This document shows, in pieces, positions 11,411 through 11,896 of a DNA stretch of 14,995 bases. Below the pieces are notes generated by a model. That model was not told the origin of the DNA, ran no database searches, and saw only the letters and a list, made by a program, of their open reading frames with translations. Both the position numbers and the translations under genes were made by a program. Every line of letters starts with the position of its first letter. Position 1 is the first letter of the stretch. This DNA is from an uncultured archaeon (GTDB lineage Archaea > Asgardarchaeota > Jordiarchaeia > Jordiarchaeales > Jordiarchaeaceae), in assembly GCA_964510585.1 (NCBI GenBank), contig CAZECW010000019.1:1-14995 (forward strand). The letters are read 5' to 3'.

Positions 11411-11692
11411 ACGAATCTCCTCAAAACCTTTTTTAAAAACAATAATCCCTTAAAATAAAGGAAATTGCCCTTTAAATTATTACCTTACAAAAAACCACCG
11501 TCAACATATAAAGGATGAATTATGCTTGAATTCACTTTTCTCTGTTAAAAATTATTTGAGAAGCGTTATTAAACATTTACTGGTGAGGTTTCCATTAATT
11601 TTATGATTTGTGTAGTCAAAAATCTGGAAAGTTGCTGCTCAAAGAAGTATTTAGTCCAGCCTTAACTTTTTCGATATTTTTGTCCAATATTT

Positions 11693-11870
11693 TTGACACT
11701 CTCCGCGACTAAAGTTGCGGGGATTCTTGCTTCTGGCTCATCGGGAGCCTTCGAAGCAATGGGTGTGCCATCACCCGGTTAACACGCCCTTCCCTCAAGG
11801 GAACGGCGTCTATGTTGGCACCCTCATGGGGGCTGCATCTTGTTTAGCCTCTTAAGCCCAAGCCAAACCC
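11693..11870 (-). ncRNA. Putative TnpB omegaRNA (reRNA) scaffold
   Basis: Consecutive hairpins, plus-strand arm coordinates: 11842-48/11862-68, 11818-23/11830-36, 11784-94/11799-809, 11761-65/11772-76, 11727-33/11753-59 with inner 11735-39/11745-49. They are followed by the right-end hairpin and TCAA. A TATA box lies about 25 nt upstream. Confidence 0.65.
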
Positions 11871-11888
11871 TTCAGCTACCAACAACCA

Positions 11889-11896
11889 TTTATATA
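11889..11896 (-). promoter_or_regulatory. Archaeal TATA box inside the mini-element
   Basis: TATATAAA on the minus strand with purine-rich GAAAGTAGGG upstream. Canonical spacing places the TSS at about 11867-11870, the start of the first hairpin. Confidence 0.55.

What the first reader, a model, noticed from the sequence alone, without database searches (positions are those of the whole stretch)
11670..11896. Orphan TnpB-type omegaRNA with its own TATA promoter and no nuclease gene
Seen: TATATAAA, then about 178 nt of near-continuous hairpins ending at TCAA. The TTGA loop (11798-11795) is complementary to the terminal TCAA, a possible pseudoknot. Known: TnpB guide RNAs derive from the IS right end, use a pseudoknot near the scaffold 3' end and take the flanking host DNA as guide. 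Inference: a stand-alone guide cassette acting in trans with a TnpB or nuclease-dead derivative encoded elsewhere. Predicted guide begins AAAUAUUGGACAAAAAUAUC, with a TAM resembling TTAC. The internal stems look better preserved than the transposon-end hairpins, hinting at selection on the RNA. The promoter also points toward the PurM-like gene about 280 nt beyond the element.
Basis: partly seen in the sequence, partly recalled or inferred. Interest (0 to 1): 0.75.

Follow-up and report, generated by a model that had tools for sequence, protein, structure and literature searches.

The report
Gene-less TnpB guide-RNA mini-transposon
The flagged stretch is the right two-thirds of a 277-base protein-less mini-transposon (IS200/IS605 type, at least 70 copies in this hot-spring archaeon) that keeps its two ends, a likely promoter and the guide-RNA scaffold of a TnpB nuclease encoded elsewhere in the genome. 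It is a real, well-preserved element of a kind already described in bacteria.

Summary
On the minus strand there is TATATAAA (11896-11889), about 178 nt of stacked hairpins, and an end at TCAA (11696-11693).

It is not a lone cassette. It is part of a 277-bp element (11969-11693) inserted directly 3' of TTAC (11973-11970). The assembly holds at least ~70 copies at 91-98% identity. A related strain has the exact scarless empty site.

The ends follow the IS608 code (AAAG/TTAC and GAAT/TCAA). Autonomous tnpA-tnpB relatives with the same ends sit in the same genome.

The hairpin region is homologous to the DNA right after tnpB in those elements. Its helices covary strongly across 43 diverse relatives. 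The reading as a TnpB omegaRNA scaffold is therefore supported, and TTAC as the TAM follows.

Not supported:
- The TTGA-TCAA pseudoknot, because that loop varies.
- A role as promoter for the PurM-like gene, because there is no orientation bias.

Transcription and use by TnpB in trans remain untested.

Protein-less IS605 elements (PATEs) that carry omegaRNAs were already noted by Meers et al. 2023, so this is a new member of a known kind.

First readers of this scan flagged other copies in 54 windows of this genome. Follow-ups in other genomes reached the same class.

The parts
11970..11973 (-). Target tetranucleotide TTAC (usually TTTAC). It is host DNA, not part of the element, and is the expected TnpB TAM.
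   Evidence: TTAC is present at 90 of 91 left junctions with unrelated DNA upstream. The empty site in a related strain reads ...CCAATATTT|GTAAACATG on the plus strand.
11693..11969 (-). The whole non-autonomous IS200/IS605 element (PATE/MITE), 277 bp, with no ORF.
   Evidence: Alignment limits against all genomic copies. There are 28-29 full copies inside contigs and many 141-nt pieces at contig ends.
11919..11963 (-). Left end. It comprises an outer stem TTGGCGA/TCGCCAA (11963-11957 and 11925-11919), the guide tetranucleotide AAAG (11955-11952) and a subterminal hairpin (11951-11931). In this copy the hairpin carries 4 substitutions against the family consensus.
   Evidence: Read from the sequence. 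About 85% identical to the left end in front of tnpA on contigs C169, C7 and C162. Substitutions listed.
11889..11896 (-). TATATAAA, a candidate archaeal TATA box. A second TATA-like TTTATTTG lies at 11913-11906.
   Evidence: It aligns with TATATTGA of the parent IS, which starts 29 nt before the tnpA ATG. It is untested, and this segment is the most variable part among copies.
11818..11870 (-). Predicted 5' domain of the RNA. It has a hairpin at 11868-11842 and a small CCC/GGG hairpin at 11830-11821. The predicted start is about 11866-11870.
   Evidence: Fold. The domain is shared with a diverged copy on C49 and with a Bathyarchaeota MAG locus, L032. It is absent from the shorter sister-species PATEs.
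11784..11809 (-). Stem A, a two-part helix.
   Evidence: All 10 pairs show compensatory changes across 43 relatives. The loop is variable.
11761..11783 (-). Linker GUUAAC (11783-11778) and stem B (11776-11761), with the nearly invariant loop AUGGCA (11771-11766).
   Evidence: Stem B pairs covary and the loop (G/A)UGGCA is kept in almost all 43 relatives. The same linker, stem and loop appear in the Rfam sot0042 consensus.
11727..11759 (-). Stem C, with base UUGCUUC/GAAGCAA and inner GGCUC/GAGCC. It is much longer in related elements.
11693..11726 (-). Right end. It comprises the guide tetranucleotide GAAU (11726-11723), a subterminal hairpin with UUUA loop (11723-11700; loop 11713-11710) and the tail GUGUCAA ending in the cleavage site TCAA (11696-11693).
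   Evidence: All 74 right junctions end in ...GTGTCAA and are followed by unrelated DNA. The hairpin pairs covary.
11673..11692 (-). Flank that would serve as the 20-nt guide (AAAUAUUGGACAAAAAUAUC). It is host DNA.
   Evidence: Position relative to the right end. This 20-mer has no other match of 16 nt or more in the assembly.

Best explanation
Window 11969-11693 (minus strand) is one copy of a protein-less deletion derivative (PATE/MITE) of an IS608-like IS200/IS605 transposon.

Shown:
- It has the family's left and right subterminal hairpins.
- It sits directly 3' of TTAC without target duplication.
- It is present at 70 or more sites.
- It is absent from the same site in a related strain.
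- It shares its ends with autonomous tnpA-tnpB elements of the same genome.
- Its right 120-175 nt are homologous to, and fold like, the omegaRNA-coding right end of those elements.

Inferred:
- The Y1 transposase TnpA of the autonomous elements moves it in trans as single-stranded DNA.
- A transcript starts about 25 nt downstream of the retained tnpA-type TATA box, near 11866-11870. It runs through the scaffold and across TCAA into the flank.
- This RNA, with the flank as guide, is loaded by a TnpB made elsewhere.
- If the element is excised, TnpB cuts the restored TTAC+flank site, so that recombination with a sister copy puts the element back.

This particular copy has a damaged left-end hairpin and may no longer move.

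The confidence given is a blend: about 0.9 that it is a PATE carrying an omegaRNA-derived module, and about 0.5 that the RNA is made and used in trans.
For: Repeat family and limits.

TTAC at 90 of 91 left junctions; the GTGTCAA end with unrelated flanks at 74 right junctions.

AAAG and GAAU lie just 5' of the two hairpins, as in the IS608 code (the rule itself is from established IS608 work).

Scarless empty site in a contig of a related strain. Element depth is roughly 40-160 times that of the flanks in two DNA runs.

Three intact Y1 tnpA genes lie about 130 nt behind a near-identical left end.

tnpB 3' ends on C8, C45, C54 and C152, and an intact 424-aa tnpB on C81, are each followed by a homologous scaffold ending in the same GTGTCAA.

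Covariation on 43 diverse relatives:
- 91.4% of cells are paired, against 70.3% in shuffles.
- 27 of 29 pairs have double changes.
- The score is 0.485 against 0.168 in shuffles (0 of 500 reach it) and at most 0.106 when partners are slid.
- Many G-U pairs make the fold specific to the tnpB-sense strand.

Two other PATE families also keep an A/T-rich TATA-like stretch plus the full scaffold. One is about 205 bp, in a sister species. The other is about 400 bp, in this genome.

Among 28 full copies, private substitutions per site are 0.17 in the RNA part, 0.24 in the left end and 0.45 in the promoter/spacer.

The 400-bp sister family gives a sub-threshold but significant match to Rfam sot0042, the haloarchaeal tnpB sense-overlapping RNA (23 bits, E = 2e-4 for that 206-base search).

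Meers et al. 2023 state that PATEs often encode omegaRNAs that must use TnpB in trans.
Against: No transcript is demonstrated. The only RNA-library evidence is one 217-nt contig of depth 3.4 from a different copy, and it could be DNA carry-over.

The window copy matches no Rfam family at E up to 10.

The TATA segment is the most variable part of the family. About a quarter of copies carry a changed TATA box.

Copies are young (91-98% identical), so the scaffold could persist without selection.

The partner TnpBs lack the canonical RuvC-II glutamate. Activity of that 'rearranged' type is only predicted.

The full-length tnpB of the commonest autonomous type is not assembled on one contig. One copy (C7) is frameshifted.

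A pseudoknot, which is a hallmark of TnpB guide RNAs, is not established.
Confidence: 0.7

Rival explanations
1. It is an inert relic. The element is a PATE mobilised by TnpA, but the hairpin block is only left-over right-end DNA from a recent internal deletion. It is not transcribed into a working guide RNA, and it is kept because the family is young.
For: Copies differ by only 2-9%. No transcript has been shown. The promoter segment varies most, and subfamilies with altered TATA boxes still multiplied. The window copy gives no Rfam match.
Against: TnpA needs only the subterminal hairpin, guide and cleavage site, about 40-50 nt by established IS608 knowledge. Yet three independent PATE families keep the whole 115-175-nt scaffold. 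The RNA part collects fewer private substitutions than the rest. Compensatory changes separate the PATE scaffold from the autonomous scaffolds.
Confidence: 0.22
2. It is a mobile promoter or regulatory cassette. The TATA box drives the downstream host gene (here the PurM-like gene at 11410-10049), and the hairpins act as a leader or attenuator.
For: A TATA-like box points toward the PurM-like gene about 280 nt beyond the element.
Against: Across copies the next gene is co-directional in 22 cases and convergent in 25. In the related strain the same gene pair works without the element.
Confidence: 0.03
3. It is a domesticated guide for a nuclease-dead TnpB-like repressor (TldR-like). The RNA directs binding, not cutting, at a chromosomal site.
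For: The partner TnpBs have glycine instead of the RuvC-II glutamate.
Against: The RuvC-I and RuvC-III aspartates are kept. These tnpB genes lie in multi-copy mobile elements next to tnpA. E-to-G with a substitute glutamate is a described rearranged, presumably active, class. Each copy has a different guide that matches only its own flank.
Confidence: 0.05

Closest known systems
PATE-like non-autonomous IS200/IS605 elements that encode omegaRNAs (Geobacillus stearothermophilus; Meers et al. 2023, PMC10055086)
   Same: No protein gene. Left and right ends are shared with tnpA- and tnpB-bearing elements of the same genome. The guide-RNA scaffold is retained at the right end. The RNA is expected to use TnpA and TnpB in trans.
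   Different: The host is an archaeon, a hot-spring Asgard lineage according to earlier notes of this scan. The copy number is far higher (70 or more). An archaeal TATA-type promoter appears inherited from tnpA. The ends are TTAC/TCAA. The partner TnpB has a rearranged RuvC-II motif.
IS608 (ISHp608) of Helicobacter pylori, the model IS200/IS605 element
   Same: Insertion 3' of TTAC and a right end finishing in TCAA. AAAG and GAAT lie just 5' of imperfect subterminal hairpins. There is no target duplication. This rests on established knowledge of IS608 compared with the sequence here.
   Different: Only 277 bp long with no tnpA or tnpB. An extra outer stem encloses the left hairpin. No similarity beyond the end motifs was tested.
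ISDra2 TnpB omegaRNA (Nakagawa et al. 2023, PMC10097598)
   Same: The scaffold ends at the transposon right end with the guide taken from the flank. The last hairpin carries a UUUA loop at -21..-18 (ISDra2: -20..-17). The nucleotides just before the guide are conserved and could form a pseudoknot (ISDra2 uses -6..-2).
   Different: There is no detectable sequence similarity. The TAM is TTAC, not TTGAT. The pseudoknot partner is unresolved here. The RNA would be made from its own promoter without an overlapping tnpB gene.
Rfam RF02656 sot0042, a sense-overlapping transcript of IS1341-type tnpB genes in Halobacterium
   Same: Same order of parts: two-part stem, UAAC linker, short stem with a GU(U)GGCA loop, long stem, GAAU, terminal hairpin.
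   Different: Only the 400-bp sister PATE family reaches 23 bits, against a gathering score of 88. The window copy gives no match.

Membership tests
IS200/IS605 non-autonomous element (PATE) | Subterminal imperfect hairpins at both ends and no terminal inverted repeats | tested here: met
   Left hairpin at 11951-11931 and right hairpin at 11723-11700. Both are conserved in all copies.
IS200/IS605 non-autonomous element (PATE) | Insertion 3' of a fixed short target without target-site duplication; scarless empty site | tested here: met
   TTAC at 90 of 91 left junctions. Flanks on the two sides are unrelated. The empty site in a related strain joins TTAC directly to the right flank.
IS200/IS605 non-autonomous element (PATE) | Guide tetranucleotides 5' of each hairpin that match the cleavage sites by the IS608 rule (AAAG with TTAC, GAAT with TCAA) | tested here: met
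   AAAG at 11955-11952 and GAAT at 11726-11723, read from the sequence. The rule itself comes from established IS608 biochemistry and was not tested here.
IS200/IS605 non-autonomous element (PATE) | An autonomous partner with a Y1 (HUH) transposase and the same ends in the same genome | tested here: met
   PF01797 matches on C169, C7 and C162, each about 130 nt behind a left end about 85% identical to that of the element.
IS200/IS605 non-autonomous element (PATE) | No protein-coding gene inside | tested here: met
   No ORF of 60 aa or more within 11693-11969. Only a remnant of the TnpB C-terminal tail is recognisable.
TnpB omegaRNA (reRNA) | Derived from the 3' end of tnpB plus the right end, on the tnpB sense strand | tested here: met
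   Alignment with the right ends behind tnpB on C8, C45, C54 and C152. Model hit directly behind the intact tnpB on C81.
TnpB omegaRNA (reRNA) | Conserved secondary structure supported by covariation | tested here: met
   27 of 29 pairs have compensatory changes, and shuffled and slid controls are far lower. Caveat: the alignment was fitted to the model.
TnpB omegaRNA (reRNA) | Scaffold ends at the transposon boundary and is followed by a copy-specific guide | tested here: met
   The invariant GTGTCAA is followed by unrelated sequence at 74 junctions.
TnpB omegaRNA (reRNA) | Pseudoknot involving the nucleotides just upstream of the guide | tested here: inconclusive
The conserved UGGCA loop could pair with UGUCA (-6..-2), and most variants keep that pairing, but there is no double compensatory change. 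A third option, GAYGC with GUGUC, appears in the fold.
TnpB omegaRNA (reRNA) | Expressed as a discrete RNA | tested here: inconclusive
   One 217-nt contig in an RNA-seq library covers 11691-11845 of another copy. Contigs cannot show ends or strand.
TnpB omegaRNA (reRNA) | Binds TnpB and directs TAM-dependent DNA cleavage | not testable with these tools
   This needs biochemistry or a plasmid-interference assay.
Rfam RF02656 sot0042 | Score at or above the family's gathering threshold (88 bits) | tested here: not met
   The window copy gives no match at E up to 10. The sister family on C107 scores 23 bits.
TldR (nuclease-dead TnpB repressor) guide RNA | Partner protein with an inactivated RuvC site, immobile, with a fixed chromosomal target | tested here: not met
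   RuvC-I and RuvC-III aspartates are present and only RuvC-II E is changed to G. The partners are multi-copy and linked to tnpA. Guides differ at every copy.

The most novel reading that the evidence does not exclude
The protein-less elements are not passive hitch-hikers. They form a self-sustaining 'guide-RNA only' lineage. Each of about 70-90 copies would express its own guide from a captured tnpA promoter and borrow a RuvC-rearranged TnpB in trans to protect itself from loss. In this reading the scaffold is under selection in the gene-less copies: it evolves more slowly than the rest of the element, it shows compensatory divergence from the autonomous scaffolds, it has been kept in three independent PATE families, and a near relative of its 5' domain occurs in a Bathyarchaeota MAG. 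That would make this Asgard genome a natural test case for trans-acting TnpB guide networks.
Probability: 0.4. Interest if true: 0.55.

Novelty: new member of a known kind. Interest (0 to 1): 0.35.

Why it matters
It gives a clean archaeal example of a transposon reduced to its ends, a promoter and a guide RNA. The example has dozens of copies, an empty-site polymorphism and autonomous partners in one genome.

If the RNAs are made and used, one or a few TnpB genes would serve 70 or more different guides in trans. That bears on how TnpB systems spread, and on how separated guide and nuclease loci, as in CRISPR, could arise.

Practically, the family explains much of the fragmentation of this assembly, because contigs end 141 nt into the element. 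It should be masked or annotated so that the same element is not repeatedly reported as something new.

Tried and rejected
- **Rfam.** A scan of the whole window at gathering thresholds found nothing. Permissive scans of the region gave only chance-level hits such as SNORD51, CRISPR repeats and miRNAs.
- **tRNA/tmRNA.** None found.
- **Bacterial promoter and terminator scan.** Uninformative for an archaeon.
- **First boundary guess.** I first took 11900 as the left limit. An apparent break near element position 68 was an artefact of that truncated query. With the full element, contig ends carry 141 nt on both sides, which is the assembler's word length.
Rejected on comparative grounds.
- **Mobile-promoter reading.** Rejected because there is no orientation bias.
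- **Guide matches elsewhere.** The window copy's guide has none. Two other copies have perfect TTAC-flanked matches on C154 and C75. The upstream flanks differ there, so these are rearranged or co-assembled alleles, or chimeric joins across the repeat.
- **RNA evidence.** Only one RNA run held part of the element, and only as a contig. Parts of the element without RNA cover say nothing.
- **Full-length tnpB of the commonest autonomous type.** It could not be recovered. Contigs break inside it in this MAG, and the sister-species copy is frameshifted.
- **Literature.** Phrase searches for 'orphan', 'standalone' or 'trans-acting' omegaRNA returned nothing. A paper on archaeal circular omegaRNAs does not mention PATEs or MITEs.
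- **Other assemblies.** Contigs carrying the identical PurM-like protein are all filled or break inside the element.

Full report
**What is in the sequence.**
On the minus strand the window reads TATATAAA (11896-11889), then a GC-rich block of stacked hairpins, then ...GGAGAGTGTCAA ending at 11693. The block folds much better than shuffled sequence: z = -3.5 for 11670-11896 and z = -3.3 for 11693-11870. The opposite strand folds nearly as well, so folding alone does not settle the strand. Neighbouring genes are archaeal housekeeping genes: RadA, archaeosine tRNA-ribosyltransferase, MptE, archaeal dihydroneopterin aldolase and a PurM/AIR-synthase-like protein. Runs that hold the locus are hot-spring metagenomes. 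Earlier notes of this scan call the genome a hot-spring Asgard archaeon (Jordarchaeia/Freyarchaeia). I did not verify that.

**It is a dispersed repeat with exact ends.**
A search of the window's own 3.78-Mb, 217-contig assembly found dozens of copies at 91-98% identity. Using a longer query moved the left limit from my first guess (11900) to 11969. In 90 of 91 left junctions, unrelated DNA is followed by TTAC (often TTTAC) and then AAAACCTTGGCGAG.... In 74 right junctions...GTGTCAA is followed by unrelated DNA. There is no target duplication and there are no terminal inverted repeats.

The element proper is therefore 11969-11693 (277 bp), with TTAC at 11973-11970 as the target. About 28-29 copies lie whole inside contigs. 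Many more appear as 141-nt pieces at contig ends, which is the assembler's word size, so the family is a main cause of assembly breaks. A covariance model of the right part finds 86 hits in the genome. Of these, 69 are of this family at 137 bits or more. Same-genus genomes have 3-17 hits, so the expansion is specific to this lineage.

**Family of the transposon.**
The ends carry the IS608 arrangement. AAAG lies just 5' of the left hairpin and goes with the TTAC target. GAAT lies just 5' of the right hairpin and goes with the TCAA end (the pairing rule is established IS608 knowledge, not tested here). Three intact Y1 (HUH) transposase genes lie about 130 nt behind a left end that is about 85% identical to that of the element, and each is followed by the start of a tnpB gene.

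**Mobility.**
One contig of a related strain has flanks roughly 90-95% identical to the window. It skips the element and reads ...CCAATATTT|GTAAACATG on the plus strand. That is TTAC joined directly to the right flank, the scarless empty site expected for this family. In two DNA runs the summed depth over the element is 40-160 times that of the flanks. Contigs elsewhere that encode the identical PurM-like protein are filled or break inside the element.

**Is the hairpin block a TnpB guide-RNA scaffold?**
tnpB 3' ends at the starts or ends of contigs C8, C45, C54 and C152 are followed by a right end that finishes in the same GTGTCAA. These right ends align with the element over about 115 nt, with the same helices but different letters. 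Stem A is ACGCC/GGCGU in the element and GUGCC/GGCAC behind tnpB. The model also hits directly behind an intact 424-aa tnpB on C81.

On 43 diverse hits the result is clear. The hits come from this genome, 18 other genomes of the phylum, a Methanomethylicaceae MAG and a Bathyarchaeota MAG.
- 91.4% of pair cells are standard pairs, against 70.3% in shuffles.
- 27 of 29 pairs show changes on both sides.
- The covariation score is 0.485, against 0.168 in shuffles (0 of 500 reach it) and at most 0.106 when partners are slid.

The alignment was fitted to the model, which favours the structure, but the margins are large. Frequent G-U pairs would be A-C mismatches on the other strand, so the fold belongs to the tnpB-sense strand, the minus strand of the window. 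Changes in stem B are compensatory at the RNA level yet alter the overlapping TnpB tail residues (H, Q or R). RNA structure, not the protein tail, is therefore what is being kept.

The last hairpin has a UUUA loop at -21..-18 from the guide. ISDra2 omegaRNA has a UUUA tetraloop at -20..-17. The window copy matches no Rfam family. A second, roughly 400-bp protein-less family in this genome (C107, C58, C21, C32) has the same core and gives a sub-threshold match to Rfam sot0042, the haloarchaeal tnpB sense-overlapping RNA. That match has the same order of linker, stem, GU(U)GGCA loop, GAAU and terminal hairpin.

**Pseudoknot.**
That loop varies among copies (CTGA, ATGA, TAAA, TTAA) and is different in every related lineage, while the tail is invariant. 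This pairing is not supported. The loop of stem B, (G/A)UGGCA, is nearly invariant and can pair with UGUCA at -6..-2, the same tail positions that form the ISDra2 pseudoknot. Most natural variants keep that pairing (G-U to A-U or G-C, C to U, A to G), but no double compensatory change was seen. The minimum-energy fold offers a third partner, GAUGC at 11839-11835. The question stays open.

**Promoter.**
TATATAAA aligns with TATATTGA of the autonomous element, which starts 29 nt before the tnpA ATG. That is the spacing of an archaeal promoter for a leaderless mRNA. The sister-species 205-bp family and the 400-bp family also have A/T-rich TATA-like stretches just upstream of the scaffold. This segment is nevertheless the most variable part of the family. 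About a quarter of copies have an altered TATA box, and those variants are shared by several copies. No transcript is shown. One 217-nt contig of depth 3.4 from a microbial-mat RNA-seq run covers 11691-11845 of a different copy, with unrelated sequence upstream that may be coding. Contigs give no ends or strand, and DNA carry-over is possible.

**Selection.**
Among 28 full copies, private substitutions per site are as follows:

| Segment | Private substitutions per site |
|---|---|
| Promoter/spacer | 0.45 |
| Left end | 0.24 |
| RNA part overall | 0.17 |
| RNA 5' domain | 0.12 |
| Right hairpin and tail | 0.11 |

This is modest evidence that the RNA part is more constrained. The window copy carries 4 of its 8 substitutions in the left-end hairpin. 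Three are C-to-T changes that create G-T pairs, and one breaks the loop-closing pair. Its scaffold differs from consensus at only two paired positions.

**Partner nuclease.**
The C81 TnpB and the C8-type TnpB of the sister species keep the RuvC-I and RuvC-III aspartates. Both have glycine at the RuvC-II glutamate position (IVLGRL, IVVGNL). Altae-Tran et al. 2023 describe exactly this replacement as a 'rearranged' catalytic site with a substitute glutamate, predicted to be active. A canonical TnpB on C204 has a different right end. 'Nuclease-dead' is therefore possible but not indicated.

**Other readings.**
There is no orientation bias relative to the next gene: 22 co-directional and 25 convergent. 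Most copies are intergenic. The mobile-promoter idea and the link to the PurM-like gene are not supported. The window copy's guide has no second match in the assembly.

**Comparison with what is known.**
Meers et al. 2023 found PATE-like elements among IS605 relatives in Geobacillus. They wrote that PATEs often encode omegaRNAs that must be acted on in trans by TnpB from other elements. The present element is an archaeal, high-copy member of that kind, with IS608-type ends. I found no paper describing it in Asgard archaea. First readers of this scan flagged other copies in 54 windows of this genome, including this very stretch. Follow-ups in other genomes classed similar elements the same way.

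**Verdict.**
It is a new member of a known kind. Function in trans is plausible but untested.

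Noticed in passing
L080 (G000:C107:6700-7468), also G000:C58:28391-28557, C21:228-398, C32:13043-13211: A second protein-less family of about 400 bp in the same genome. It has its own left end, an A/T-rich TATA-like stretch, a different 5' domain and the same scaffold core with a long stem C. 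It gives a sub-threshold match to Rfam sot0042 (23 bits, E = 2e-4).
   Followed up: partly
L076:176-1447 minus strand (G000:C81:5075-6346): The intact tnpB reading frame runs through the whole guide-RNA scaffold to the last base of the transposon. It is closed only by a TGA in the host flank, so the protein's C-terminus would depend on the insertion site.
   Followed up: no
L076 (C81) and L082 (G004:C141:27200-29200): The TnpBs that go with this scaffold family have glycine in place of the RuvC-II glutamate (IVLGRL / IVVGNL). This is the 'rearranged' catalytic type described by Altae-Tran et al. 2023. The sister-species copy is broken by frameshifts.
   Followed up: partly
G000:C154:2119-2143 versus C12:8956; G000:C75:18714-18739 versus C62:12659 and the end of C66: Two copies have right flanks that recur elsewhere in the assembly directly behind TTAC, a perfect 20-nt guide match with TAM, but with different upstream DNA. 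These may be empty-site alleles of co-assembled strains, element-mediated rearrangements, or chimeric joins across the repeat.
   Followed up: partly
L032:3180-3413 (Bathyarchaeota MAG WUQV01000054.1): This locus shares the element's 5' RNA domain and scaffold order with no recognisable left end or tnpB nearby. The exact 23-nt right-end motif also occurs in Methanomethylicaceae, Elusimicrobiota and Nealsonbacteria MAGs, which suggests wide horizontal spread of this IS lineage.
   Followed up: partly
G004 loci L063, L064, L067, L071: A same-genus genome has its own PATE family of about 205 bp. It consists of a left end, an A/T-rich stretch (TTAATATAA) and then directly the scaffold core of the C8-type right end. 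This is an independent reduction to the same three parts.
   Followed up: partly
window 11476-11553 plus strand: A weak match to a C/D-box snoRNA model (SNORD51, 18.5 bits, E = 2.7) in the spacer between the PurM-like gene and the element. It is probably chance.
   Followed up: no
window 11931-11951: The left-end hairpin of this copy carries four substitutions against the family consensus. Three are C-to-T changes and one breaks the loop-closing pair. This copy is probably a poor substrate for the transposase.
   Followed up: partly
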